Source: a virus (Duplodnaviria; Caudoviricetes). Taken from it: 64,000 nt of DNA. The translations under genes and the position numbers were made by a program. Within the stretch, counting starts at the first letter, position 1. The number at the start of each line of letters is the position of its first letter. Location: positions 128,001-192,000 of the IMG/VR virus record IMGVR_UViG_3300031867_000002; one strand, written 5' to 3'. The notes beneath the pieces are model-generated. The model saw nothing but the letters and a program-made list of their open reading frames with translations, was not told the origin of the DNA and ran no database searches. This document shows positions 1,388 to 62,300 of this stretch, in pieces.

Positions 1388-2553
1388 CAAAATTACACCC
1401 TAGCTTTCGCTATATTTTGTTAGTCATTTAAGACTGGGATTAGAGTACATCTACATCTTTTATTCTTTAAGAACATTCAGATGTTAGGCACTTCACATCA
1501 GGAATTTCACCTGAATGCTAACAACTTTTATAACTCGTATTCAGTTATTATTCGTTGATACTCGTTACACTTTCCTTTAATATCGTCATAATATATGAAT
1601 GTATTACATAATAATTCTATTGGAAATCCGTTATTTAAGATGCGTTTACTATGATTTGACTATCTTATTATTGTAGTTTTATCTACATTAAGAAGTCTTG
1701 AAGCTGATGATATAGAACCATATAAATGAAATACAGCATTAGAATCAATAAAAATCACTTTAATAGATTGAGAATCATTGAATGCTTTATCGTTTACACA
1801 TAATCCATTATCAAAGGCATGTTGCATATTTTCACTATCAGTACACCATTCTAGATTTGTATAGTGATTATTTAGTTTATTTCCATCAATATGATTTACA
1901 TATGGTTTGTTTAACGGATTATCTATAAAAGCTGATGCTACTAATCTATGAACTCTTACATTTCTTCTAACACCAAAATCATCAGTAATTCCTACTAAAT
2001 GATATCCAAAGTTAATAAAACCTGTTAACTTTTCAAGAAATCCTCTTTTAAACAAATATACATCACCATTATCTGATATATAATATGATGAGTAATTAGG
2101 AATCCGAACAATTCTACCGTTTGAAAAATTTTCAAGTTTTCTAGAATTATAGTATTCTAAATCATCTTCGTCATAGATTCTATTTCCATTAGAATCTCTA
2201 TTGGAACCAATCCCATGTACTTGATTGTGAATCCAATATACAGTCTTTTTACTTGTTAAACCAGTAATATTCATATATTCTTTACTATTCATATATAAAT
2301 CACTCCTTTATAAGAATTTATATATGAGTTAGTATGATATTAAAAGCTTAGCTCGGTATTTCCAGCTATCCATATTTCAGGACCTTAGGTTCTCTTAGGA
2401 GCGTATTCGTCTTTGGAGTATGATGGTATCGTCGACCATCAGTCTTATCTAGCTCTTACCGATAGCATAAAATCAATTGATTTTACACACCCTATATTTA
2501 TAGGTTCACCTACTTTTAACTGATATATTTCTATATCAGTGCCCACAGATTCT
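1388..2553 (-). mobile_element. group I self-splicing intron in nrdD
   Basis: Splicing after ...ACG CCT (ends in U) and after terminal G at 1388 restores ATP|AEG. P7 pairing GUAACGAGUA / GUACUCUA, P9-like UAGC-GAAA-GCUA, Q-like GGAAAUACCGAGCUAAGC. Confidence 0.92.
1660..2292 (-). CDS. intron-encoded HNH homing endonuclease (MerR-like HTH, NUMOD4-like, HNH, NUMOD1-like)
   Basis: VHRLVASAFI...VNHIDGNKLNNHYTNLEW motif, own AAGGAG RBS. Frame continues past TAG to 1528. Confidence 0.9.
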   Translation of the reverse strand: MNSKEYMNITGLTSKKTVYWIHNQVHGIGSNRDSNGNRIYDEDDLEYYNSRKLENFSNGRIVRIPNYSSYYISDNGDVYLFKRGFLEKLTGFINFGYHLVGITDDFGVRRNVRVHRLVASAFIDNPLNKPYVNHIDGNKLNNHYTNLEWCTDSENMQHAFDNGLCVNDKAFNDSQSIKVIFIDSNAVFHLYGSISSASRLLNVDKTTIIR

Positions 2554-4473
2554 AGGCGTAGCTAATACAGAGAAATTAAGATGAGTTTCAGAAGCTACCT
2601 TATCTGTATACTCTCTCATATGTTTTACAATAGCATATCCCTTATCCCAATACTCTTGTCCTTCACCGTGATGATGACCATAAAGTGCAACTAATGCTTC
2701 TGCGAGTCCAACAAAACCAATAGAAAGAGAACCATGTTTAAGTACTTCTCCAACTTCATCTTCTGGACCAAGTTTTTCAGAATCAAGCCATACACCTTGT
2801 CCCATAAGGAAAGGAAGATTCTTTACCTTAAGATGAGACTGAATTTCAAATCTCTCTAAGAGTTGCTTCTTTACAAGCTCTAAGTATTTATCAAGAAGCT
2901 CATAGAATTTCTTTTCGTCATGATTAGCTTCAATAGCAAGCATAGGAAGATTAATTGTGGTGAAAGAAAGATTACCTCTAGAATGAGAAATCTCTCTCGT
3001 TGGGTCATAGACATTTCCGATAACTCTTGTGCGGCAACCCATAGTAGCTACTTCAGTTTCAGGATGTCCTGGTTTGTAATACTGAAGATTGAAAGGAGAG
3101 TCGAGGAATAAATAATTAGGAAACAGACGCTTACCAGTAACTCTATAAGATAACTGAAGTAAATCATAGTTTGGGTCTTCTGGATTATAGTTTACTCCTT
3201 CTTTTACCTTAAAGATTACAATTGGGAAGATACAAGTTTCACCATGTCCTAATCCAGCTTCCATAGCAAGAAGAAGATTCTTAATAACCATACGTCCTGC
3301 ATTAGAAGTATCTGTACCTAAGTTGATTGACGAGAATGGAAGTTGACCCCCAGCTCTAGCGTGAAGCGTATTAAGATTGTGAACGAAGCCTTCCATAGCC
3401 TGATAACACTCATGTTCTAAGTCTTTTTTAGTCATATCAATTATCTTATATAATTGCTCATCAAGGCAATCTCCAGTCTTTTCTTTATTGAAATACTGAT
3501 AGTCTTTTTTATCACAAAGTACAGACTCTATCAATTCATCTTCTTCATCAAAGATATTACTTATTCTTACATATTTGTATTCGTCATTATCTGTAAGAGT
3601 GGTTATATTTTTATTTTTGTGTATGATAAGGGTAAAATCATCTTTATTTAAAAGTCCAAACTCGATAGCCTTTTCTACATTACGTTTCCAAGCTTTTCTA
3701 AATGACTTATAAATACCTTGTGTCATAGAATAATCAAAGTTGGGAATAGATTGCCCACCATGACAATCCCCCTGGTCCGACTGGATTGCAATGGCAGCTA
3801 ATGTAGTATAAGAACTAATTGACTGCGGTTCTCTTACAAAACCATGACCTGGATTAAATCCACCCTTAGCAAGTTTCTTAAAATCAATTTGACAACAAGT
3901 CACAGTGAGTTTATAAAAGTCAAGGTCATGAATATGAATATAACCATCGATATGTGCTTTAGCAATATCTTTACTCATCATATTATTTAGATAATAATTC
4001 TTTGATACGTTAGAACCAACCTGCAACATAGTACCCATAGCTGTATTGCCATCAATATTAGCATTCTCACGTTTAGCATCACAATCTTTAGAATCACTCA
4101 TAAGTACATCAGAGATTGTTTTAGAGATACTATCTCTTGTACTACGAATTTCATCTCTCTTTCTACGATATAAGATATATGCTTTAGCAGTATCAGAAAA
4201 GCCATTCTTAATGAGAGTGCGTTCTACGATATCTTGAATAACGTTAATATCAATACTCTTAATTGAGGATGGATAATCAGTCTGTTTATCAAAGATATCT
4301 TTAATCTGAACAACGACATCAGATGTAAGTCTTTCAAGAACAAGATTACTGAAATCTTTAAGTTCCTCCTGTGTATGAGAAGCAATTACTGCTTTATGAA
4401 TAGCTTCTCTGATTCTGTCTGGTACAAAAGGTTCGACAGTACCGTTTCTCTTAATAACCATATAATTTTCCAT
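2554..4473 (-). CDS. nrdD: anaerobic ribonucleoside-triphosphate reductase, exon 1 (with ATP cone)
   Basis: MENYMVIKRNG ATP cone after GGAGG RBS, HIHDLD, TCC, GGQS, MGCRT, RGNLSFTTINLP, ends ...SVLATP. Confidence 0.95.
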
Positions 4474-4474
4474 A

Positions 4475-4705
4475 TTAGTTTTCCTCCTTATCGATATACA
4501 AATCAATCCATGGACTAGACCATCCGTCATAAGTTCCATTTATCTCAGAAACTTTATAATTTTCATATTGTTTTAAGATTTCTTCTGTAGCTTTTGGGTA
4601 AATATTAAGATAATCTTCATGATTTGTACAAATACGTTCATTGTTTTCACAAAGTATAATACAATAATACCCTGTTAAACGTTTTAATACTTCTTTTAAC
4701 GTCAT
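4475..4705 (-). CDS. hypothetical protein
   Basis: RBS and ATGA coupling to the upstream gene. Confidence 0.65.
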   Translation of the reverse strand: MTLKEVLKRLTGYYCIILCENNERICTNHEDYLNIYPKATEEILKQYENYKVSEINGTYDGWSSPWIDLYIDKEEN

Positions 4706-19436: not shown

Positions 19437-21242
19437 TTAGAACTCTGGATTAACAAACTTAACACTTTTATCTGGATGAATAGTAAGTTCATATAAGCAA
19501 AGAATATTTTCTTTTGAAATACCTCTTGTTGTAAAACCATTCATACCAAGAACTTGAATTTTTGCATTAGCTTGTTTCTCACATTCCTGATTAGCCTCAA
19601 TTGTGTATACTGGTTTAACAATTGCTGTATCACCGTCATAGTCCATACCCATAGCTTCAATAAGACCATTACTAATAGAAAGTGTATCTTCGAATACTGG
19701 AGATGTATTAGAGTTAATGTCAGTATCCTCAATAACAGGATACCATTTATATAATTTCATATTGTCTTCAAAATCAGATTGAATAACCATAGGCGCAGTT
19801 TTAACAGTAGACTTTATTCTAACTTTTGTAGGATACTGATTAAGATAGGAGTCAATTGGGAAACGAGTAATAAGACACATCTTATCTGATGTAACATCAC
19901 ATGCTGCCATATAGAATAAATCACACCATGTAATACGTCTATTTACTTTAAGAGTTTCTGAATAATCTTGTTTAGTCTCTTTATATTCTTCTGAATTATT
20001 AAGTTTATATCCAGTAAATCCCATCCAAAAATTTAAATTTTTCAAATCTTTAATTTCTTTACCAGAAATAGCTCCAACTATTTGATGATTCTTAGCACGT
20101 CTAGCAAACTCTTCTTTATCTACTGGAATTTCAATAGGAATAAAACGGTTGCTATAACCATGAATAAAACGTTCAATCTGTTTATCTATTTCTACATCAG
20201 AGAATGCAATCTGATAATCTACTAATGGCACCATGATAGATTCTTTTTCATTTATCATAATAGGATACTCTAGTTTACCAGCAAATCTATTCTCAAAGAA
20301 ACGTCTTAACCAGAATGATACAAATGGTTTAAAGCAACATAGTGCTGCAGCTAGTGGTAATGCACAGTGGTCCATGTCAATCATTAAATCATCTATATCT
20401 TCTCCACTTACATCGGGAGCAGACATTACCAAACGTGCACTATAATCTACTGTTTTATACATAGTACCACGTTTAATAAGACCCATTTTACCAGGTAAGT
20501 TAGCAGGTGTTTCTTTACCATTTATAGTAGTACCATTACCAAACCAATCAAAAATTTGTACTAAAATATTTTGTACTCTTGCTTTAGTAACGTCACTTAA
20601 TGTAAGTCCATATCCAGATGTTTCTTTAAGTGCTTTTGTAGCCATTATCAAACTACTATAGAGTTTGTTTATTTCTCCTACTCCAATACCAGCATCTCTA
20701 GTATCTACGTCTCTATAGTATGCTGGTATTACTACCCACTTATCTACCCACATCTTATTTTTTACTTTCTCAATAAAGTCAATTCTCTTATTTCTAGATG
20801 CAGAATCATTCTTCTTAAACTTAATCTTAGAGAAGTTTTTCTTTAACCAATCTATCCCAGTATCGCCATCATCACTTGGAACTAAATCACCTTTATCATC
20901 AATAATAAAATAATCTGTACCATTTACAATATCTGCAATCTTACCATTGAGTTTTAATAGTGTCTTATATACTAGTGGTTGTATAAATTGAGAACCTAAA
21001 TCTATATATGCATATATACCAGCACGTTCATTTTTTGTAATGCCAAATATTTCATTGCTTAATAATCCATCTTCTGTTGGTGTAGGACCATTAAAAAATA
21101 CTGGATTACTTACCTCTTTTAACAAGTTATTCTTAATAAACTTATCTATGTCTAATAACTCTGTTTTAAAGTGTTCAGTTGCAGCTTCAGTAAAATAATC
21201 AGTTTCATCCTTAGCAATATTAACAGCTTCATCTATAAGCAT
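19437..21242 (-). CDS. phage multisubunit RNA polymerase beta' N-terminal/catalytic subunit (probably virion RNAP)
   Basis: GLLSNEIFG, VIPAYYRD, KTVDYSARLV, TRFP, catalytic GMDYDGD. Start MLIDEA after AAGGAGG, late-type promoter. Confidence 0.9.
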   Translation of the reverse strand: MLIDEAVNIAKDETDYFTEAATEHFKTELLDIDKFIKNNLLKEVSNPVFFNGPTPTEDGLLSNEIFGITKNERAGIYAYIDLGSQFIQPLVYKTLLKLNGKIADIVNGTDYFIIDDKGDLVPSDDGDTGIDWLKKNFSKIKFKKNDSASRNKRIDFIEKVKNKMWVDKWVVIPAYYRDVDTRDAGIGVGEINKLYSSLIMATKALKETSGYGLTLSDVTKARVQNILVQIFDWFGNGTTINGKETPANLPGKMGLIKRGTMYKTVDYSARLVMSAPDVSGEDIDDLMIDMDHCALPLAAALCCFKPFVSFWLRRFFENRFAGKLEYPIMINEKESIMVPLVDYQIAFSDVEIDKQIERFIHGYSNRFIPIEIPVDKEEFARRAKNHQIVGAISGKEIKDLKNLNFWMGFTGYKLNNSEEYKETKQDYSETLKVNRRITWCDLFYMAACDVTSDKMCLITRFPIDSYLNQYPTKVRIKSTVKTAPMVIQSDFEDNMKLYKWYPVIEDTDINSNTSPVFEDTLSISNGLIEAMGMDYDGDTAIVKPVYTIEANQECEKQANAKIQVLGMNGFTTRGISKENILCLYELTIHPDKSVKFVNPEF

Positions 21243-21343
21243 TGTAATATACCTCCTTATTATCATATAATTATTATAAAGTTCCACCTATCCATTCTAA
21301 CAAAACATACATATAAAATTGATTATAAAGGAGGATATTCTAT

Positions 21344-27547: not shown

Positions 27548-27596
27548 AAAAGAAGGCGGGATGTAGAGTCCCGCCTTCCTTCTTGATGCTGAAAGG

Positions 27597-27782
27597 TTAA
27601 TCCTCCTCTCCATACCTTTCAGCATCAGTCATGAGCATGAGGTCAATTTGCTCTTGTTCATAATCTTCTCTTTCTTTCCAATACTTAATCCACTTGTCCT
27701 TTGACCATGGGATTTCGTTATTGCCGAGGGCATCCTTCACGAAATCTTCATATGTCTCACCATAAATGTTAACGTATTCCAT
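27597..27782 (-). CDS. small hypothetical early protein
   Basis: MEYVNIYG after AAAGGAGGTG. Confidence 0.65.
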   Translation of the reverse strand: MEYVNIYGETYEDFVKDALGNNEIPWSKDKWIKYWKEREDYEQEQIDLMLMTDAERYGEED

Positions 27783-27783
27783 A

Positions 27784-28092
27784 TTATTCACCTCCTTTCA
27801 AAGCGGAAATTTTCATTATCCACTTATTTCCTTTCTTATTATATATATTTACATATACAACACCATTCTTCTCTAAATTTTCTCTCCCCTTTATTTCATT
27901 TTTATTTTCTCCGAAGAAAATAAGAATTGGTAAATTTGGATTTTCCGTGTAACCCATTACACAAAATCCCAATTCTTCCTTCTCCCCCCTTTCTAATGAT
28001 TCTTTAAACATAGCAGAATTAAACCTGCCAAGTTTAATAATTTTTTCATTGTTGTTCCCTGTTTTGATTTGATAAATTCTGCCATCTAACAT
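27784..28092 (-). CDS. hypothetical early protein
   Basis: GGAGG RBS, preceded by the repeated structured leader. Confidence 0.65.
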   Translation of the reverse strand: MLDGRIYQIKTGNNNEKIIKLGRFNSAMFKESLERGEKEELGFCVMGYTENPNLPILIFFGENKNEIKGRENLEKNGVVYVNIYNKKGNKWIMKISALKGGE

Positions 28093-28098
28093 GATATT

Positions 28099-28145
28099 CC
28101 TCCGAGAGGTCGTAGAGTCTTTATAACCGTTTTACAGTAACCTCT
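28099..28145 (-). promoter_or_regulatory. conserved structured leader, copy 1
   Basis: AGAGGUU-ACUGU(AAA)ACGGU-UAUAAAG...ACGACCUCU-CGGAGG. Second copy at 59232-59274. Confidence 0.75.
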
Positions 28146-28249
28146 TACACATTAATAATATATAAAAAAGAATGATAAGTTTAACAACCAACAATTTTTA
28201 TACCTTTAACATCCAAGTAATAAATTGATATAGATAGGAGGCGATATAC

Positions 28250-28972
28250 ATGGATACACCTAGCTTCATTAAAGTTAAAGGTGACTCTTATGTATTTGCT
28301 AATGATGGTTGCTTTAAATTCTATGTTCCTGAGAAGTTCTTTTCTAATAAACTTGCAGAGTTTATTGGTGAATGTATTGCTCTATTTGGAGTAATACCTT
28401 ATGCTCTCTTTGATAAGAATGATAAACCCATCGGAAAGCTGAGAAACTTTAAATTCCCTAATACATTTCTCACTAAACCAGATGAGATTGAAATTGCTAA
28501 GGGAATTGTATTAACTAAGAATAACAAACCTGAAGATTATCGTATTCTGAAATATTATAAAGAAGGAGTTATTGTTGTAAACTATAATATCTCTCAAGAT
28601 GCAGAGAATATTCAACATTGGTATTCTGCTCTTGATACTGGTGCTTTACCTAATAATATTCATTACGATGAACTTCAGAACTACTTCTTAAGAAATGCTC
28701 AAATTACTGGTAACGGATATGGCGTTTCATTACAACTTATCGGAGTTGTAATCGGAGAATTATGTCGCTGTAGTAAAGATATTGATACTCCATATAGACT
28801 AGGAAAAGACGAAGACCCAAACGCATATCAATGGATTGCTATCAAAGATGTACCTAGAGGAACATCGCCGTTTACAGCTATTCAAGCTGAACAATGGGAT
28901 TTAGCTGTTATTTCATCAATTACTAATGATAATAATAAAGACTCTCCTCTTGAGAAGATTATGATGGATTGA
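28250..28972 (+). CDS. RNA polymerase beta' extreme C-terminal fragment (probably virion RNAP)
   Basis: C-terminal ~85 aa align by eye to the end of the 53828 subunit (ELCR/NQIR, SPFTAIQAE/SITIAMQSE, SPLE/SPYD). Late promoter at 28208. Confidence 0.6.
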   Translation: MDTPSFIKVKGDSYVFANDGCFKFYVPEKFFSNKLAEFIGECIALFGVIPYALFDKNDKPIGKLRNFKFPNTFLTKPDEIEIAKGIVLTKNNKPEDYRILKYYKEGVIVVNYNISQDAENIQHWYSALDTGALPNNIHYDELQNYFLRNAQITGNGYGVSLQLIGVVIGELCRCSKDIDTPYRLGKDEDPNAYQWIAIKDVPRGTSPFTAIQAEQWDLAVISSITNDNNKDSPLEKIMMD

Positions 28973-41914: not shown

Positions 41915-44518
41915 ATGAATCTTACTCATAAGGATATTATTGCTCGTCAACGCAATTTAATTACAGATACTTATGTATGTAATGCTTATTGTAATATTCC
42001 TCATTTATATGAAACTCTAACAAATGAGAATTATTCATATAATAAAGCTAAGATGCTATTGGAAAACTGGCAAGCTTTAGATAATGATGAAGAAAAAGCA
42101 TTATATAAAGTATTGGAAGTATTTGGATTGATTGTTGATAATGATAATAGTTCTAATATTCAAAATGCAGCTAGTTTAATTGAAGGAAAGATTATTCCTA
42201 AACTACGTAATGCTAAACAGACAAGACAATTAAACAATTATAAACGAGGTTGGATTAAACATAGACATACAGCTATGCTTAATGATACTAAAGATAATGA
42301 AACTGCGGTTCAAAGAGCAAAATCAAATGGAGGATATTTAGGAAACTCTTTACATCCTCATAGAAAATATAAACGTGATATTTATGGGCGTAAAATGGGA
42401 GAAGCAAAAGGTAATTCTAGTGGTGGAGATGAAATGTCAGATTCTGGTGGAGATGACTTCGCAGCAGAAGAATGTTATAATAGATTTATCAAGGCTGCCT
42501 CTATAAATGAGCAATGTGATAGAGTTCTAAACAATCATGCTAAACTATCTAAACGATTTGATTTAGAATCTAAAGTTCGTAGATGTCCTTTAAATGAATT
42601 ATCATTGCAAAAATGTATATATGATATATGTACTCTTATAGAAAGCTATGATATACCGTTTGGAGTTAAGTATAACATTGCTTTAGAGAATATTATGTAT
42701 CTAATGGTTAAGAATTGTATTCCTATAAGTAATTCATTTATTCTTGAAACTGTAACTGATTATTTTTTGATGGAAGAATCTACAGATGCTAGATTACATG
42801 ATATGAAGTATATTCTCGAAAATGCTAAATTTTTTACAGAAGAAGATATCGAACCTGTATCTTATCTATTGGTAGATGAAGGTGCTATTATTGAAGCATT
42901 AGAAAATGATGATTTAGAATCTCTTGAAGAAAATAAGATTCATGATATGTTCTTAAAGTGGAAAGAAAAGAGAGTTAAGACTAATAAAGAAAAAGATGAA
43001 GTTGATAAAATGAAAATCAAAAAGATTATTCATGACTTCAAGAAAGAGCACAAAAAAGATATCAATAAGTTTAAAGATGCTATTAGTAGAATCTTTATAC
43101 AAAGACCAGAAGCTATTATTCAAGAACTTCCAGATATTATGCAATTCGTAAGACTAGGTGTTGTATTAGGAGCTACTGCTATAAATCCTGTATTAGGTGT
43201 TATTACTCTTATTACAGACCTATTCTTAAAGATGAAGATATCTAGAGAGCAAATGGCTAAGGTTGTTGAGCAATATGCTAAAGAAAGAGACAAGTATAAA
43301 AAACTTGCAGATGAAGCAGAAGATGAAAAGAAAAAAGAGAAGTATACTGCATTATATAAACAATATAAGAAAGATACAGATACACTTGAGATGAAAGAGA
43401 ATGACCTATATACAGACGCAGAAAATGATAAGCGTATGGAAGAGAAATGGGCTAAAGAAGCTGAAGCATCTATGGGTGATGATGACTTTAATTTCGATTT
43501 TGATATGGACTTTGATTTTGAAGAGTCTGTTAAATATGTAGGTATGTTAGCTACACTATATGAACAATTAGACTTTACTAAAACAGAATTAATGTCTACT
43601 ATAAATAATAATATTCATAGTATGTCTAATGAAGATATTTATAATATTACAGAAGCTGTTAAGTTATGTAATGAAGTATTTGATTGTCCTCGTTATATTA
43701 ATATACTTGAAGATGAATTGCTTCGTTCTAGACAATCTAATTCACATCTTATTGCTGTTCAAAGAGCTGATACTATTAAGACATGTATAAATGATATAGA
43801 AAAGATTAAATACGATAATCTATTAGAGGGTACTTATGTAAATAATGATAACACGATTCCTCCAGTAGATATTATGTATGAACAACTCAAATGTAAACAT
43901 GATATCATGAATGATACATTAGAACTTGTTACCAGATATAAGAATTCAGCTATTAATGAATCTAAAGAAGGTTCTGGTATGTCATTTACTAGTAAACTTA
44001 AGATTGCTTCTGAAAATTTAAGACGTTCTGCACTTCATCTTAAAGATAAAGATAAACAATTATCTATGAAGTTAGACAGTGAATTGAATCGTGTTATGAA
44101 ATCTGCTAAGAAAGCTATGATTAGTGATAGTAGAGAGAATATTATTAAAGGTTCATTCCTACCATCTGCATCTAAATGTATTCATATTGCTCTTGCGTCT
44201 GGTGCGGCATATCTAATTAACCCAGTACTAGCAGTAATAGGTCTTATTGGATTTATAGGTTGTTCTAAAACAATTAACGAAAAAGAACGTAATCTAATTC
44301 TTGATGATATTGATATTGAGATTAAGATGTGTGATAAGTATCTTAAGATTGCAGAAGATAAAGAGGATTTAACTGCAGTAAGAGAAATCATGAAAACTAA
44401 ACGTGACCTTGAAAGACAACGCTCTAGAATTCTTTATAATAAGAATTATATATTTAAGAATAAGAAACAATATGATATGCCTGATAAGATTGGTAAAAAG
44501 ATGAGCGATGATGATTAA
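41915..44518 (+). CDS. large internal head/ejection-type protein
   Basis: 867 aa, two hydrophobic INPVL segments, coiled coils, upstream of the capsid gene. Confidence 0.5.
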   Translation: MNLTHKDIIARQRNLITDTYVCNAYCNIPHLYETLTNENYSYNKAKMLLENWQALDNDEEKALYKVLEVFGLIVDNDNSSNIQNAASLIEGKIIPKLRNAKQTRQLNNYKRGWIKHRHTAMLNDTKDNETAVQRAKSNGGYLGNSLHPHRKYKRDIYGRKMGEAKGNSSGGDEMSDSGGDDFAAEECYNRFIKAASINEQCDRVLNNHAKLSKRFDLESKVRRCPLNELSLQKCIYDICTLIESYDIPFGVKYNIALENIMYLMVKNCIPISNSFILETVTDYFLMEESTDARLHDMKYILENAKFFTEEDIEPVSYLLVDEGAIIEALENDDLESLEENKIHDMFLKWKEKRVKTNKEKDEVDKMKIKKIIHDFKKEHKKDINKFKDAISRIFIQRPEAIIQELPDIMQFVRLGVVLGATAINPVLGVITLITDLFLKMKISREQMAKVVEQYAKERDKYKKLADEAEDEKKKEKYTALYKQYKKDTDTLEMKENDLYTDAENDKRMEEKWAKEAEASMGDDDFNFDFDMDFDFEESVKYVGMLATLYEQLDFTKTELMSTINNNIHSMSNEDIYNITEAVKLCNEVFDCPRYINILEDELLRSRQSNSHLIAVQRADTIKTCINDIEKIKYDNLLEGTYVNNDNTIPPVDIMYEQLKCKHDIMNDTLELVTRYKNSAINESKEGSGMSFTSKLKIASENLRRSALHLKDKDKQLSMKLDSELNRVMKSAKKAMISDSRENIIKGSFLPSASKCIHIALASGAAYLINPVLAVIGLIGFIGCSKTINEKERNLILDDIDIEIKMCDKYLKIAEDKEDLTAVREIMKTKRDLERQRSRILYNKNYIFKNKKQYDMPDKIGKKMSDDD

Positions 44519-53827: not shown

Positions 53828-56044
53828 TTAATCTCCCATATACTTAAATAAACCATCCATACTATCTTCAGAATTATTGACAACTGGTTCGTTATTAATA
53901 AACTTCTGAGGTTGTACCATATACATTAAGTCGTAAGGAGATGGCTTGTGTTTTCTGAAACTTAGAGGGCTATAAAGCATTCTAGCAATATTCTCGGATT
54001 GCATTGCAATCGTAATACTAGGATGTGTCATTACAGCTTTCTTAAGAGTAAGAATCTGATAATTAGTCTGATTAGGAACACTCCAATCAGGCATTTCAAT
54101 AATATCAGTCTTATCTCTAATCTGATTCATAATAATAATCTCTAAATGAACAGACATAATATGGTCTAATCCAATATTATTAAGTCTATCAGATAAAGCT
54201 TTAAGGAATGACTCAGCTGTATAAGAATCTGTATTAGCTTTAAGGTCAATAACTTTAATTACAGATTCAAGGCGTTCAGACATATCATCATTATGAATTC
54301 CTACATCGAATAACGGAGAATTATCATCTTCAAGTAATACAGATACAGGGATATCAATATCTTCATTATTATCTGCAAGATTCTTCAGTTCAATATAATC
54401 ATTAAGCCAATCTGTAAGATATAAGTTATCCATATTAGATGTCTTAATTGTTATAGTTTCATTAGAACCATGCTTTTGAAGATAGAATACATTGATATAA
54501 TTCATAGAATCTTCTATATTAAAGTCATCATTATCATCGTCATCGCCATCATCTAAAGATGCAATAACTTCTTCTTGAATATCTCCGTCTTTAATAATAA
54601 GATGCCATTTCTTGAAATCAGGAATATTAGGATTGATAAAGATAGTGCCTTCATCTATAATAATATACTTAGCAATTTCTTCTTCAGACATAATAGAAGT
54701 ATCAAAAGTTACACCATCAATCTTCGCCTCAAGAAGATGTTTAGCTGACAACATCATTTGAGTTAAGCGTTCTGTTAAGTTTGTAACGCTGTAAACACCA
54801 ATGTTAGTTGCTGGTACAATATTATAAAGTTCACCCATACATCTTCTACAGATACCTCTACCATTAGCTGCAGATAAACACTTAATTGGGGAACGTAGAT
54901 AAATTACTTTACCAATAAGGTCTTGATTTTCTTTTACTACTCTATATACATTACCAAGACGATGTTCAATTCCCATAGGGTCAATACGATACCATCTATC
55001 AGCAATTTTCTTAAGAGCAGTTTCATCTTCTACATAATATTCAAGAAAGTTACGAGTACCACAATCATATCCAGGGTCAATATTGTCTGAATAAGGTATT
55101 GTATACTTTCTTGTAGTAGCACAATTTAAAATCATAATTCTAGAGAAATGTCCTGAACGAGAAGTATTCTTCTTAGAAAGATTCTGTGCAATACGAGCAA
55201 TAAGAGATTCCAATATATGAAATGCTACATTATTTGCTCCTCCTGAGATATAAGATGTGTTTACAACATAAGGGAATACGCCGCCTTCACCATTAGGTTT
55301 AACTCCAATATTGATATACATCTCACGAGCCTGTTTAGGCTTAACACCTTCTTTAGCTCTAAATGCATCTGATAAGCAATGGTCTCTACCAATATATTGT
55401 TTAGCATTTACAATATAATCAATAAGACGATTCATATCATTAAGAGCTTCTTGATTCATTTGTTCTGGCGGAAATTGTGCATAGTAATTCTGATTATGTC
55501 TATCCATAATTTCTTTAAAACCAGGACAACTATAATACATAAGGATAAAGTCTTCCATATTGATACTATTATTAAAGTACCACGCAAATTTGTCTACAAA
55601 TTTCAAATCTCTTAAACTATCATAGATAGTTCGATTAAGATTATGAATAAGCATTCTATCTGCTGCATTATTAGAAGCTTGGTCTCTTACAGGCATAATA
55701 GCATATTTATCAATATAAGATTTGATATACGCATTTGTAATGCCTTTCTTGTTAAAGAACAAATGTTTAGGTTTAATTGTCTGATTAGTCTTTACAATAA
55801 AACCCCATACGATAATGTTAATAAGTGCATATGCTGGTGGAAGATTAACACTCATACCATTATCAAATATGAATGTTACCTTTGTTTTCTGGACTGTAGG
55901 ATTCTCAATATAATCCAGAAATACATCTTTCAAATCGTTTTGAAACTCATTAATAGTTTCTTGTGTGATATCTGCTGTTTTAATAACAACAGGTTGTCCA
56001 GTAATTAGTGGTGTAAAAACACCATAGTCATAAGTTGTAGTCAT
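53828..56044 (-). CDS. RNA polymerase beta' C-terminal subunit (probably non-virion RNAP)
   Basis: Bridge-helix-like KKNTSRSGHFSR, LRSPIKC...ICRRCMG Zn site, trigger-loop-like TQMMLSAKH, early promoter upstream. Confidence 0.88.
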   Translation of the reverse strand: MTTTYDYGVFTPLITGQPVVIKTADITQETINEFQNDLKDVFLDYIENPTVQKTKVTFIFDNGMSVNLPPAYALINIIVWGFIVKTNQTIKPKHLFFNKKGITNAYIKSYIDKYAIMPVRDQASNNAADRMLIHNLNRTIYDSLRDLKFVDKFAWYFNNSINMEDFILMYYSCPGFKEIMDRHNQNYYAQFPPEQMNQEALNDMNRLIDYIVNAKQYIGRDHCLSDAFRAKEGVKPKQAREMYINIGVKPNGEGGVFPYVVNTSYISGGANNVAFHILESLIARIAQNLSKKNTSRSGHFSRIMILNCATTRKYTIPYSDNIDPGYDCGTRNFLEYYVEDETALKKIADRWYRIDPMGIEHRLGNVYRVVKENQDLIGKVIYLRSPIKCLSAANGRGICRRCMGELYNIVPATNIGVYSVTNLTERLTQMMLSAKHLLEAKIDGVTFDTSIMSEEEIAKYIIIDEGTIFINPNIPDFKKWHLIIKDGDIQEEVIASLDDGDDDDNDDFNIEDSMNYINVFYLQKHGSNETITIKTSNMDNLYLTDWLNDYIELKNLADNNEDIDIPVSVLLEDDNSPLFDVGIHNDDMSERLESVIKVIDLKANTDSYTAESFLKALSDRLNNIGLDHIMSVHLEIIIMNQIRDKTDIIEMPDWSVPNQTNYQILTLKKAVMTHPSITIAMQSENIARMLYSPLSFRKHKPSPYDLMYMVQPQKFINNEPVVNNSEDSMDGLFKYMGD

Positions 56045-58987: not shown

Positions 58988-59032
58988 AAAATAAACTAAA
59001 AATAAGGGCGCTCTCTGACAGCGCCCTTCTTT

Positions 59033-59224
59033 TTATTTGATATTGTACTTTTCTTTGAGTGTGGGAATTGCTTCCTCACATTCTTTCTTTGTTCCAGCAA
59101 AGACTATTTTCACATAATGATTTTCTTGCTGGGAATAAACAGTTGTTCCACAATCAGAAACCCCATAAGTAATTCTCAAGCTTCTAATTGTTCCGTACAG
59201 TGCAATATATACTCCATATAACAT
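59033..59224 (-). CDS. small hypothetical early protein
   Basis: GGAGG RBS, preceded by the repeated leader. Confidence 0.65.
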   Translation of the reverse strand: MLYGVYIALYGTIRSLRITYGVSDCGTTVYSQQENHYVKIVFAGTKKECEEAIPTLKEKYNIK

Positions 59225-59231
59225 AATATGT

Positions 59232-59274
59232 CCTCCAGAGGTCGTGGACTTTATAATCGTATACGATAACCTCT
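59232..59274 (-). promoter_or_regulatory. conserved structured leader, copy 2
   Basis: AGAGGUU-AUCGU(AU)ACGAU-UAUAAAGUCCACGACCUCU-GGAGG. Confidence 0.75.
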
Positions 59275-59375
59275 ATTCTACCTAAATAATATATAAGTAT
59301 CATAGTTAACTTTTACAATCACTACATTCTGACCAGCTCAACATATACATAATTAAGCTTGAAAGGAGGAATCGT

Positions 59376-62300
59376 ATGTCTATTAAAGTACAAAAGTATC
59401 TTGCTAACTTAGGCAAATCGGTTGCTTATACTACTGCAGATGTATTGTCTGAGAAGTTTACTTATGTAAATGACTTTAAGAATGAAAATCAAGAAGTCTT
59501 TAAAGAAGCATATCATTCTATTAAAGATTATAGAACTACATTTGCTAGAATTAAAAAGACTATTACTGATAATAAAGTAATGGATGCTGCTAGAGTTGGC
59601 TTTGATTCTATTGTGTATAGTGTTACTACTGGTGACTTCTATGCTAAGAATAAAGAGCAGGAAGTTATGAATAAATACGGCGGTAACATGATGCAAGGTA
59701 TGGACATCGATGATGATGACTTTGATTTCGGTAATGAAGATGTTACTGATGGTGATAAGGTTATTGCTACTGCTGTTAAAAAGAACAGTAAGTTACAAAC
59801 TGCTATTACTACAGAAGCTATCGTCAAAACTGGCAAAGCTCAAATGGATGTTTCTAAAGAGAATACAATGTTACTGTATACTCAAAATGAGCGTCTTATA
59901 AATAAACTTGATGGTGGATTGCAAAACATCACTGGTTTCTTAAAACAGAATGCAGAGCAGACTGCAAAAGTACAAAATCAGATGAATGAAAATCTCAACA
60001 AGTTTATGGCTAATGTAGATAATAACGTTGCTAAACTCACTAAGCAGATGGATGAGTTACTCGAAATGCAGCGTAATTTATATGCTAAACAAACTCAAGA
60101 CCAGAATCAAAAGAAAAAAATAGGTTATGATGATATCATCGGTAGAGGTGGTGTAATCAATCTTAAGGAATATGGTAAGTATATAGGAAGAAATGCTAGT
60201 AATGAATTAATGCAGGCTATCCCAGGTCTCAATATGTTACTCGGTGATGGAGGTATTGAAGGTTCTAACTTACTTGCTACAATGCTTGCTAACCCTGGTA
60301 GAGAATTATCTAAGGTTGTTGTTAATAAAGCACTAGGAAAGAGTTTTGACCAAGCATCAAAGGCTCTTAATAAAACTCTTGAAAATCTTGTTCCTTCTCT
60401 TATTGCTAAAGCTAATGCTGCAGCAAAGAAAGAAGATGCTGGTTTAGCTGGTCTATTAGGTAAGATTCTTGGAATTAAAACTGGTTCTAATGAATCTGTA
60501 GACCCTAATAAATATGTCAAAGGTGCTATTCCTTTTGATGGTATTACTAAAAAGGCTATTGTAGATGTAATCCCTTATTATCTTCGTAAAATGACATCTG
60601 CTATGACAGGTGGCGAAGAGATGACATTTGATTATGCTACAGGTAGATGGACTAGTATGAAGTCTGCTAAGAAAGCATATGATAATATTACTACATCTGC
60701 TCAACGTAACACTGAATCTCTCATTAAAGGTACTATTCAAGCTGGTACTGGTAGAAGTTTTGACTCTATGTATAAATCTAAAGATGAGTATGATAGAGCT
60801 AATACAGCAGTCCAATCTCTTGCTCTTAAACTTCAAGCCGCAGGTGATTTTGGTTCTCTTAGAGAATCTGATTTAACTTCTCCAGAAAAAGCTATCTACA
60901 CATCTATGAAGAAGATTTTCCAGCGTAGTGAACATTATCGTTATGAAAAAGATGATAATGGAAGACTTAAGATGAGAAGAGGATTCAATGGTCCAGATAT
61001 ATCTGCAATTGATGGACAACTACTTGAAATTCTCAGAAGTCAAAATAGTGCTATTAAGCAGCTTAATGAGCAAGGTGGTATTGCAATGCTCGCTGCTATG
61101 GAAGGTATTACTGGAGATGCTAAGTCATATCATGGTAAGAGTTATGTAGACGCTAAGGGTGATATGAATGAAAGACATATTCAAGAAATGCCTACTGCTC
61201 AGGTTCTTTTAAGAGCTAAAGATGAATATGGCGTTACACTATATCAATATCTTAGAAGTATGGGACATAGCCTTAATTATATTAAAAAATATTCCACTTA
61301 TTTACAAACATTACCTTTCATTAATAATGGATTAAATCCTAATCCTCCTGGTAGCGGTGGTGGTGGTAATCCTAGTGGTACACCACCAACATTAGATATG
61401 CCAACATCAAATGATGGCTTTGTTGATTATGGTAATAATGCAAAAGACGATAAATATGCATCTAGATATTATGAGCAGCTGGAAAGAAAAGCTAAAGACA
61501 AAGCTAAAGAAAGCTTTGAATCTAATATAAAAAGAGTAGAAGAACAGGCACGTAAAAAAGGTAAGTCTGTTAGTTTCGTAACTGATTCTTATAATTATCA
61601 ATCTGAAGGTGAACAGATTGGTATGTCTCGTCTAGTATCCGATTACTACGGTGAAGGTGGACAATATGAAACTGAGTTCAAACTGAATCAGCAGAAAGAG
61701 GATGATAAGAAAGAAAAAGAAAAGTGGAAGAAAATGGAAGAGCTTATTGGTAAAGAAAATACTGATAAGCTTAAAAAAGCCACCGATAAATATGATAAAG
61801 ATAAGGGCTTAATGGAGAACTTATCTAAAGCTACTGGCACTACAGAGAAACTTGCTATTGCAGCTAAATGGTTTACTCAAAAGACTAACTTTGCTGTTAT
61901 GGATAAAGTAACTGGCACCATTGTAAAGACAGATGCTTGGCTACGTAATCTTATTTATGGTGAAGATTTGAAAGCTGATGACCAGAAAAAGTCTCTCTGG
62001 CAATTAATGAAAGACCATACATCTGACTTCTTCAAAAATGTTCAGAAACAAATTGGAGAGCTTTTTAGTCCGATTAAGAAGTACTATGATGAGAAAATAA
62101 AGCCTCATGTAGACAAAGTTAAAAAGAAAATCTTTGGTGACGTAGACTCTGAAGGTAATATCTTAGAAGAGGGTGTACTCTCTCATTTTACATCTGGATT
62201 CCGTAAAGGTATGGCTAAAAATAGAGATGATGTACATGCTATGTGGAAGAAGGAAATTGAAGAAGCTAAGAGATTAGGAGATAAAATAACTAATTCGGAA

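What the first reader, a model, noticed from the sequence alone, without database searches (positions are those of the whole stretch)
28099..28165. Repeated covarying RNA leader in front of unrelated antisense early genes
Seen: two copies 31 kb apart (28099-28145 and 59232-59274). Each has an early promoter, an outer stem AGAGGUU/GACCUCU, an inner hairpin with compensatory changes (ACUGU/ACGGU vs AUCGU/ACGAU), a conserved unpaired UAUAAAG...AC, then GGAGG. Both head small unrelated genes inserted against the flanking late genes and closed by a terminator. Known analogy: promoter-early stem-loop (PeSL) modules of T4-like phages shuffle small genes. Inference: an expression/recombination cassette or a ligand- or protein-binding cis-regulatory RNA. 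I do not recognise the motif.
Basis: partly seen in the sequence, partly recalled or inferred. Interest (0 to 1): 0.75.

Follow-up and report, generated by a model that had tools for sequence, protein, structure and literature searches.

The report
Conserved folded leader on phage early mRNAs
A clade of uncultivated giant phages related to Bacillus phage AR9 places the same small folded RNA, not found in the Rfam library, at the start of two to four early messages per genome, each heading a different small gene; it is probably a portable element for message stability and translation control, but its function is untested.

Summary
Both copies lie on the minus strand. A third copy lies elsewhere in the same 224.6-kb phage genome.

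A covariance model found 28 copies (24 distinct) in at least eight related ~210-225 kb phage genomes, with 2-4 copies per complete genome.

- **Position:** every copy follows an AR9-type virion-RNA-polymerase early promoter (TATATATTAT-N6-G/A+1). The fold therefore starts 3-8 nt into the predicted transcript.
- **Structure:** a 7-bp outer stem (P1) encloses a 4-5 bp hairpin (P2) and a 12-14 nt bulge that begins UAUAAAG. P1 ends 0-5 nt before GGAGG.
- **Covariation:** 99% of cells are paired. Five of 11 pairs show compensatory changes. UAUAAAG is unchanged in 23 of 24 distinct copies.
- **Known families:** no Rfam match.
- **Cargo:** the downstream genes fall into at least 14 unrelated families and differ between close relatives at the same site.

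In this phage more than half of the predicted early transcripts begin with a 5'-proximal hairpin, so this leader is one conserved subclass of a wider habit.

Best reading: a cis-acting leader that protects the 5' end and leaves the ribosome-binding site open, with a conserved bulge that binds an unknown factor. The function is inferred, not shown.

The parts
28155..28164 (-). Copy 1 early-promoter core TATATATTAT. The predicted transcription start is G at 28148, six bases downstream.
   Evidence: Read. Matches the AR9 early consensus AAATATATATTAT-N6-G+1 (PMC5312081). Genome-wide promoter list.
28105..28145 (-). Copy 1 folded leader: P1 AGAGGUU/GACCUCU, P2 ACUGU-AAA-ACGGU, bulge UAUAAAG-ACUCUAC.
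   Evidence: Covariance model hit of 71.6-78.5 bits.
28090..28103 (-). Copy 1 ribosome-binding site: GGAGG (28103-28099), a 6-nt spacer and AUG (28092-28090).
27597..28092 (-). Copy 1 cargo: a 102-aa ORF (27787-28092) and a 61-aa ORF (27600-27782). Neither has a family assignment.
   Evidence: An ortholog with a conserved C-terminus sits behind the same leader in G001.
27552..27578 (.). G+C-rich 11-bp hairpin that closes the copy 1 unit and the converging plus-strand gene.
59286..59295 (-). Copy 2 early-promoter core TATATATTAT. The predicted transcription start is A at 59279.
59237..59274 (-). Copy 2 folded leader: P1 AGAGGUU/GACCUCU, P2 AUCG-UAUA-CGAU, bulge UAUAAAG-UCCAC.
   Evidence: Covariance model hit of 66-76 bits.
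59222..59236 (-). Copy 2 ribosome-binding site: GGAGG (59236-59232) and AUG (59224-59222).
59033..59224 (-). Copy 2 cargo: a 63-aa ORF with no family assignment. This unit is absent or replaced at the same junction in close relatives.
59004..59028 (.). Bidirectional terminator shared by the DNA polymerase gene and the copy 2 unit.
28208..28219 (+). AR9-type late-promoter motif AACATCCAAGTA (AACA-N6-TA), in front of the divergent virion structural gene at 28250.
   Evidence: Read. Consensus from PMC5312081. Gene identity.
59340..59351 (+). AR9-type late-promoter motif AACATATACATA, in front of the divergent large gene at 59376.
   Evidence: Read. Consensus from PMC5312081.

Best explanation
The element is a conserved cis-acting RNA domain at the 5' end of a subset of early mRNAs in a clade of AR9-related giant phages.

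Shown by sequence:
- It sits directly behind the phage's virion-RNA-polymerase-type early promoter.
- It folds into a 7-bp clamp (P1) that starts 3-8 nt from the predicted 5' end. P1 is continuous on its 5' strand with a small hairpin (P2) that has an A-rich loop.
- A 12-14 nt bulge begins with the near-invariant UAUAAAG.
- The GGAGG ribosome-binding site lies 0-5 nt past the clamp, outside the consensus fold.
- Promoter and leader occur in front of unrelated cargo genes that come and go between relatives.

Inferred:
- The clamp ties up all but 3-7 nt of the message's 5' end and so slows 5'-end-dependent decay. In a Gram-positive host that would mean RppH-type pyrophosphohydrolase and RNase J1.
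- By pairing away the leader's C-rich segment, the clamp keeps it from pairing with the ribosome-binding site.
- The invariant bulge, the A-rich loop and the invariant AGG/CCU core of P1 form a recognition surface for a trans-acting factor, most likely a phage RNA-binding protein or nuclease. That factor would co-regulate stability or translation of the two to four messages per genome that carry the leader.
For: - **Not chance:** the pattern has 2 matches in the window and 0 in 100 shuffles, plus a third genomic copy.
- **Spread:** covariance models find 28 copies (24 distinct) in G000, G001, G004 and G007-G011 plus fragments.
- **Covariation:** 99.2% of 260 cells are paired, against 27-52% when the partner columns are slid. 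Five of 11 pairs show compensatory changes: P1 position 2 is UA/GC/CG, P1 position 6 is AU/UA, and three P2 pairs carry up to five pair types. None of 500 shuffles reaches the observed covariation score.
- **Strand:** a U-G wobble closes P1 in 20 of 24 copies. On the opposite strand it would read as a C-A mismatch, so the fold belongs to the sense strand.
- **Conserved bulge:** UAUAAAG is unchanged in 23 of 24 distinct copies while the stems, the loop and the rest of the bulge vary.
- **Promoter:** every copy examined has the AR9-like early-promoter core upstream (consensus in PMC5312081). The phage has split RNA polymerase beta-like genes, and its DNA polymerase is closest to those of AR9/PBS1.
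- **Wider habit:** 17 of 31 predicted early transcripts in this genome start with a hairpin within the first 5 nt, against 15% of 400 random windows (sequences).
- **5'-end decay:** B. subtilis RppH needs at least two unpaired 5' nucleotides and prefers three or more (PMC3997798).
- **Clamp and ribosome-binding site:** with the leader alone, the site is mostly unpaired in most copies. Removing the 5' arm drops its mean unpaired probability to about 0.29.
- **Portability:** cargo falls into at least 14 unrelated families among 24 copies.
- **Selection on the leader:** promoter plus leader stay 82-88% identical between G000 and G001 where the coding sequence behind them no longer aligns.
Against: - No transcript, half-life or binding data exist for any of these uncultivated phages. 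The transcription start is inferred from AR9 only.
- The fold is not more stable than shuffled sequence (z from +0.2 to -1.6).
- Three to seven unpaired 5' nucleotides precede P1, more than the roughly 0-1 seen on the other early hairpins of this phage. Its protective effect may therefore be weaker.
- With 45 nt of coding sequence added, the natural leader does not expose the ribosome-binding site better than a shuffled leader.
- No candidate binding protein was found: RegA and CsrA families are absent.
- Many copies are orthologs or recent paralogs, so the cell counts overstate the number of independent events.
- Copies within a genome share P1 sequence, which could reflect gene conversion rather than a shared factor.
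Confidence: 0.5

Rival explanations
1. Riboswitch-like translational switch. P2 and the bulge bind a small molecule or ion. Binding stabilises P1, which holds the CCU-containing 3' arm away from the GGAGG site. Without the ligand, that arm pairs with the ribosome-binding site.
For: - The size and the conserved unpaired core resemble small aptamers.
- AGG and CCU in P1 are invariant while neighbouring pairs covary.
- In several copies the ensemble already pairs the 3' arm with GGAGG (probability 0.46-0.9).
- Removing the 5' arm lowers ribosome-binding-site accessibility in nearly all copies.
Against: - Cargo genes are unrelated ORFans with no common pathway.
- Shuffling the segment between P2 and the ribosome-binding site sequesters the site almost as well (0.35 against 0.28, p=0.02), so the effect is mostly compositional.
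- Three distinct copies have no spacer between P1 and GGAGG, which leaves no room for a proper alternative hairpin.
- No Rfam riboswitch matches.
Confidence: 0.1
2. A purely structural stabiliser or insulator with no trans-acting partner. UAUAAAG and the A-rich loop are conserved because they dock into the P1/P2 helices, for example by A-minor contacts with the invariant G-C pairs. The result would be a compact, nuclease-resistant 5' fold.
For: - 5'-proximal hairpins are the rule on this phage's predicted early messages.
- The only invariant P1 pairs are the A-U and two G-C pairs at its core.
- The bulge leaves and re-enters the P1/P2 junction, which would allow it to dock on either helix. This follows from the topology.
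Against: - Other early hairpins in the same genome do without such a bulge.
- No tertiary contact can be tested with these tools.
- No covariation links the bulge to the helices, because both are invariant.
Confidence: 0.22
3. A recombination end of mobile gene cassettes. The promoter and leader are kept alike by recombination or gene conversion because they serve as homology for shuffling ORFans, as T4 PeSLs do. On this view the RNA fold is incidental.
For: - The unit at the DNA polymerase junction is present in G000 and absent in G001. In G002 it is replaced by another gene behind the same promoter and the same first 8 transcript bases (GUAAGAGG). G003 and G004 differ again.
- At the G001 c5 site, homology with G000 ends at the transcription start.
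- A whole unit is present in G001 and absent in G000.
- Copies within one genome share a P1 type.
Against: - Compensatory changes in five pairs, together with an invariant 7-mer across 24 distinct copies, are not expected from homology maintenance alone.
- The wobble pairs make the fold strand-specific.
- The one clean presence/absence case (G001 c6) has both boundaries outside the motif; at the G001 c5 site homology ends at the transcription start, the 5' edge of the model hit.
- The promoter alone is shared by about 30 units with different leaders.
Confidence: 0.1
4. A DNA-level element, such as a hairpin or operator used by the virion RNA polymerase or by a repressor, rather than an RNA.
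For: - The inverted repeats lie just downstream of a phage-specific promoter.
- TTATAA is palindromic.
Against: - The U-G wobble in 20 of 24 P1 helices would be a mismatch on one DNA strand.
- Two copies read CUAUAAAG, which breaks the palindrome.
- AR9 early promoters mostly lack downstream hairpins.
- Nearly half of this phage's own early promoters also lack them.
Confidence: 0.04

Closest known systems
PeSL (promoter-early stem-loop) cassettes of T4-type phages (PMC2839356)
   Same: - Conserved early promoter, stem-loop and Shine-Dalgarno blocks flank small ORFans.
- Gene content at a given site differs between close relatives.
- Each unit brings its own promoter and terminator.
   Different: - The PeSL promoter is sigma-70-like and read by host polymerase. 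Here the promoter matches the AR9 virion-polymerase consensus.
- The PeSL stem-loop is a poly-G/poly-C terminator between or over the promoter boxes. Here the fold lies downstream of the start site in the 5' UTR, has a conserved bulge, and shows RNA-type covariation with wobble pairs.
- Mini-circles have not been tested here.
AR9/PBS1 early transcription units (virion RNA polymerase promoters, PMC5312081)
   Same: - Same promoter core (TATATATTAT-N6-G+1).
- Early genes set divergently against late genes that carry AACA-N6-TA promoters.
- The phage has split RNA polymerase beta-like genes and its DNA polymerase is closest to AR9/PBS1.
   Different: - AR9 early leaders are short and mostly unstructured: 4 of 23 have a 5'-proximal hairpin.
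- No equivalent conserved leader was seen among the 23 AR9 early leaders examined.
- DNA polymerase identity to AR9 is only about 26%.
5'-terminal stem-loop mRNA stabilisers (E. coli ompA and papA leaders; the ermC 5' stabiliser of B. subtilis; reviewed in PMC3997798)
   Same: - A helix close to the 5' end.
- A strong ribosome-binding site follows immediately.
   Different: - Those elements have no conserved bulge sequence and are not multi-copy families.
- The stabilising effect here is inferred only.
Translational operators bound by phage proteins (T4 RegA and gp32, MS2 coat protein)
   Same: - A small RNA element next to the ribosome-binding site is shared by several messages, which allows co-regulation.
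   Different: - No RegA-family gene is present.
- The element lies upstream of the ribosome-binding site and does not overlap it.
- No binding protein has been identified.
Small pseudoknot or hairpin riboswitches such as preQ1-I
   Same: - About 40 nt in size.
- An AGAGGUU...CCUCU helix followed by A-rich single strands close to a ribosome-binding site.
   Different: - No Rfam hit even at E<=10.
- There is no A-rich 3' tail after the helix.
- The cargo genes are unrelated to each other.

Membership tests
T4-type PeSL | Sigma-70-type early promoter read by host RNA polymerase. | tested here: not met
   Every copy carries the AR9-type core T[AG]TATATTAT-N6-G/A (PMC5312081). The sigma-70 scan flagged a hexamer pair only at copy 2.
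T4-type PeSL | The stem-loop acts as a terminator and sits between or over the promoter boxes. | tested here: not met
   The fold begins at +4 to +8, downstream of the predicted start. PeSL layout from PMC2839356.
T4-type PeSL | Flanks ORFans whose presence differs between close relatives. | tested here: met
T4-type PeSL | Recombination between elements yields mini-circles. | not testable with these tools
   This needs inverse PCR or long reads from infected cells.
AR9-type virion-RNA-polymerase early promoter | Consensus AAATATATATTAT-N6-G+1. | tested here: met
   Copy 1 reads TTTTTTATATATTAT-TAATGT-G. Copy 2 reads CTTATATATTAT-TTAGGT-A.
AR9-type virion-RNA-polymerase early promoter | The phage encodes split multisubunit RNA polymerases. 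| tested here: met
   Two RNA polymerase beta-like genes lie in the window: phrog_2986 at 19440-21287 and phrog_3015 at 53831-56044.
AR9-type virion-RNA-polymerase early promoter | Early transcription that does not depend on protein synthesis, starting at the predicted G. | not testable with these tools
   The phage is uncultivated and no RNA data exist.
Any Rfam 15 family | Covariance-model score at or near the gathering threshold. | tested here: not met
   No hit at gathering thresholds over the whole window. No hit overlaps the three copies at E<=10.
Riboswitch | Mutually exclusive pairing that hides the ribosome-binding site. | tested here: inconclusive
   An alternative pairing of the 3' arm with GGAGG is predicted. 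It is barely better than shuffled controls and is sterically poor in the copies with no spacer.
Riboswitch | Association with functionally coherent genes. | tested here: not met
   There are at least 14 unrelated cargo families. Only one has a Pfam match, a MYG1-like exonuclease.
5'-terminal stem-loop mRNA stabiliser | A helix within a few nucleotides of the 5' end. | tested here: inconclusive
   P1 starts at +4 to +8 of a start site predicted by analogy with AR9. The real 5' end is unmapped.
5'-terminal stem-loop mRNA stabiliser | Lengthens mRNA half-life. | not testable with these tools
   This needs decay assays.
Integron attC-like folded recombination site | Cassette boundaries lie inside the folded site. 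| tested here: not met
   In the one clean indel (G001 c6), the boundaries lie upstream of the promoter and beside the terminator, outside the motif; at the G001 c5 site homology ends at the transcription start, not inside the fold.

The most novel reading that the evidence does not exclude
The leader is a dedicated regulatory RNA of giant-phage early messages. Either its conserved bulge and loop are read by a phage-encoded protein or nuclease that times the shut-off or activation of a small regulon of accessory early genes, or it forms a compact fold that blocks the host 5'-to-3' exonuclease in the way flavivirus exonuclease-resistant RNAs block Xrn1. In either case it would be the first defined post-transcriptional control element for virion-polymerase transcripts in the AR9/phiKZ-related phages.
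Probability: 0.3. Interest if true: 0.75.

Novelty: new variant of a known kind. Interest (0 to 1): 0.55.

Why it matters
Giant phages with their own RNA polymerases run early gene expression without host transcription, but how their early messages are stabilised, translated and later silenced is largely unknown.

This leader is a well-supported structured RNA tied to that polymerase's promoter. It has compensatory changes across 24 distinct copies and an invariant 7-nt bulge. It is shared by unrelated, rapidly exchanged accessory genes.

That makes two questions testable:
- Do these phages use a common post-transcriptional signal on early messages?
- Do new genes gain expression by landing behind a ready-made promoter-plus-leader module?

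It may also be a compact, portable expression element for Gram-positive hosts.

Tried and rejected
- **Rfam:** gathering thresholds over the window and E<=10 on the three genomic copies. Nothing overlaps the motif.
- **Megablast against GenBank phages:** no near relative.
- **Fold stability:** not better than shuffles, so energy is not used as evidence.
- **More distant relatives:** G005 and G006 (65% DNA polymerase identity) give only about 16-18 bit hits with many broken pairs. These were rejected as members.
- **Looser pattern scans of IMG/VR:** After filtering with the model, they added only members of the same clade.
- **Late promoter inside the leader:** AACW-N6-TA does not fit, and the AAC is not conserved between copies.
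- **Pseudoknot between UAUAAAG and the spacer before AUG or the P2 loop:** the candidate partners are not conserved (read).
- **Leader as an insulator that improves ribosome-binding-site exposure in gene context:** natural and shuffled leaders perform alike.
- **Designed anti-Shine-Dalgarno in the 3' arm:** weak support only (0.28 against 0.35, p=0.02).
- **attC-like recombination site:** indel boundaries are outside the motif.
- **RegA and CsrA homologs as candidate binders:** none found. The RegA control search matched no control genome either, so that negative result is weak.
- **5' hairpins as a general AR9-group trait:** not so, since AR9 mostly lacks them.
- **Literature search:** no description of this motif found.

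Full report
**1. What is there**

Both reported copies lie on the minus strand. Read 5' to 3', each shows the same order of parts:
- an AT-rich promoter;
- AGAGGUU;
- a 4-5 bp hairpin;
- UAUAAAG plus 5-7 variable bases;
- GACCUCU;
- 0-1 nt, then GGAGG;
- 6-7 nt, then AUG.

The composite pattern occurs twice in the window and never in 100 dinucleotide-preserving shuffles. The window is bases 128001-192000 of a 224,632-bp IMG/VR phage genome with terminal repeats and 31.7% G+C. That genome holds a third copy at 42184-42221 on the plus strand.

The three cargo proteins (102, 63 and 144 aa) are unrelated to each other and have no family assignment. Each unit ends at a G+C-rich hairpin.

**2. What kind of phage and promoter**

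The DNA polymerase next to copy 2 is most similar, at about 26% identity, to those of Bacillus phages AR9 and PBS1 and of the Staphylococcus and Listeria giant phages. The window also encodes two split RNA polymerase beta-like subunits and an anaerobic ribonucleotide reductase.

AR9 early promoters, read by the injected virion RNA polymerase, have the consensus AAATATATATTAT-N6-G+1. AR9 late promoters are AACA-N6-TA/G (PMC5312081).

All copies of the leader sit behind T[AG]TATATTAT-N6-G/A. The predicted starts are at window positions 28148 and 59279, and P1 begins at +4 to +8.

The divergent plus-strand neighbours carry AACA-N6-TA at 28208-28219 and 59340-59351. AR9 also places early promoters divergently against late virion genes, at g120/g121 and g152/g153.

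**3. Is the structure real**

Energy alone does not say so: MFE z-scores run from +0.2 to -1.6. Comparative evidence does.

Covariance models built from 4 and then 10 copies found further copies as follows:

| Genome | Copies |
|---|---|
| G001 (93% DNA polymerase identity) | 3, plus 1 diverged copy |
| G004 (78% identity) | 4 |
| G007 | 4 |
| G008 | 3 |
| G009 | 2 |
| G010 | 2 |
| G011 (about half complete) | 3 |
| Fragments | several |

In the 28-hit alignment (24 distinct rows):
- 99.2% of cells form standard pairs, against 27-52% when partner columns are slid.
- Five of 11 pairs change on both sides.
- None of 500 shuffles reaches the observed covariation score.

P1 exists in at least three sequence versions: AGAGGUU/GACCUCU, AUAGGAU/RUCCUAU and ACAGGUU/GACCUGU. 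P2 has at least eight versions. A U-G wobble closes P1 in 20 of 24 copies, so the fold belongs to the transcribed strand.

UAUAAAG is unchanged in 23 of 24 distinct copies, the P2 loop is always A-rich, and the AGG/CCU core of P1 never varies. One caveat applies: many rows are orthologs or recent paralogs, so independent events number perhaps ten, not thirty-two.

The more distant G005 and G006 have no convincing copy. No Rfam family matches, and I found no paper describing the motif.

**4. Context: a wider habit of this phage**

I listed predicted early promoters across the genome and folded the first 40 nt of each transcript. In 17 of 31, a hairpin starts within the first 5 nt, often GAUAG...CUAUC. 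The figure for random windows is 15%, and the mean z-score is -2.1.

AR9 itself mostly lacks such hairpins: 4 of 23. The leader studied here is therefore one conserved subclass of a clade-specific habit of beginning early messages with a helix. A second three-copy leader family, with the loop GAGGUCAGACAA, exists at G000 64772, 94161 and 208206.

**5. Cargo and mobility**

Among 24 copies, the first downstream ORFs fall into at least 14 unrelated families. Only one has a Pfam match, a MYG1-like exonuclease.

At the DNA polymerase junction, the site of copy 2:
- G001 has no unit at all.
- G002 has another gene behind the same promoter and the same first 8 transcript bases (GUAAGAGG), but a different leader.
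- G003 and G004 differ again.

At the G001 c5 site, G000 keeps the promoter but has another leader and another gene. The G001 c6 unit is simply absent from G000, with boundaries upstream of the promoter and beside the terminator.

Where both genomes keep the leader, the promoter and leader remain 82-88% identical while the coding sequence behind them no longer aligns.

So cargo turnover is real, and the promoter region is a plausible crossover zone. The motif itself is not a recombination junction in the one clean indel examined. Its pattern of conservation points to selection on the RNA.

**6. How it may work**

Shown:
- position behind the promoter;
- the fold;
- the invariant bulge;
- the ribosome-binding site lying outside the consensus fold.

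Inferred:

(a) *Protection of the 5' end.* B. subtilis RppH needs at least two unpaired 5' nucleotides and prefers three or more (PMC3997798). The 3-7 free nucleotides here make this weaker than for the GAUAG-type hairpins.

(b) *Keeping the ribosome-binding site free.* P1 ties up the leader's C-rich segment. Removing the 5' arm drops predicted ribosome-binding-site accessibility to about 0.29. This effect is largely compositional and disappears once coding sequence is included, so I give it little weight.

(c) *A binding surface.* The invariant UAUAAAG, the A-rich loop and the AGG/CCU core form a surface for a shared trans-acting factor, or a tertiary dock. This is the only reading that explains sequence invariance beside covarying stems. 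No partner has been identified: RegA and CsrA are absent.

A metabolite riboswitch is unlikely because the cargo genes are unrelated and the expression platform is weak.

**7. Comparison and verdict**

The element works most like a 5' stabiliser plus an operator attached to a portable promoter. It resembles T4 PeSL cassettes only in its modular logic. It is a new RNA family within a known general kind. Its function needs bench work.

Noticed in passing
G000 genome-wide, e.g. G000:139724(-), 134444(-), 15822(-), 35532(-), 60516(-); window examples at 11724(-) and 6444(-): More than half of the predicted early transcripts begin with a hairpin at +1, often GAUAG...CUAUC and with unrelated inner sequence. 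AR9 early transcripts mostly lack this.
   Followed up: partly
G000:64772(+), 94161(+), 208206(+): A second multi-copy early leader family. It starts GAAUAGUAGAGGUCAGACAAUGCUAUUC and sits behind the same promoter type. It is distinct from the UAUAAAG leader.
   Followed up: no
window 28208-28219(+) and 59340-59351(+): AR9-type late-promoter motifs (AACA-N6-TA) lie in front of the divergent plus-strand genes. In AR9, recognition of this motif depends on uracil in the template strand, which raises the question of whether this phage also has modified DNA.
   Followed up: no
L019:5100-5560 (G002, DNA polymerase junction): A close relative has a different small gene at the copy 2 site. It keeps the same promoter and the same first 8 transcript bases (GUAAGAGG) but has no 3' arm, as if a crossover had occurred inside the promoter or the 5' arm.
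   Followed up: partly
L096:1043-1960 (G008): One leader copy heads a 306-aa MYG1-family (UPF0160) putative exonuclease. It is the only cargo gene with a Pfam match.
   Followed up: no
window 2539-4539(-): An NrdD-like anaerobic ribonucleotide reductase gene, which suggests an anaerobic host, probably a Gram-positive from gut or rumen.
   Followed up: no
window 19440-21287(-) and 53831-56044(-): Two split RNA polymerase beta-like subunit genes of the phiKZ/AR9 type.
   Followed up: no
L014:1501-1554(-) (G001:5770-5823): The positional ortholog of G000 copy 3 keeps the architecture (AGAGGU / AAGC-AAGA-GCUU / GCCUCU) but reads UUAAACG in place of UAUAAAG. It is the only diverged bulge seen and scores only 16-21 bits.
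   Followed up: partly
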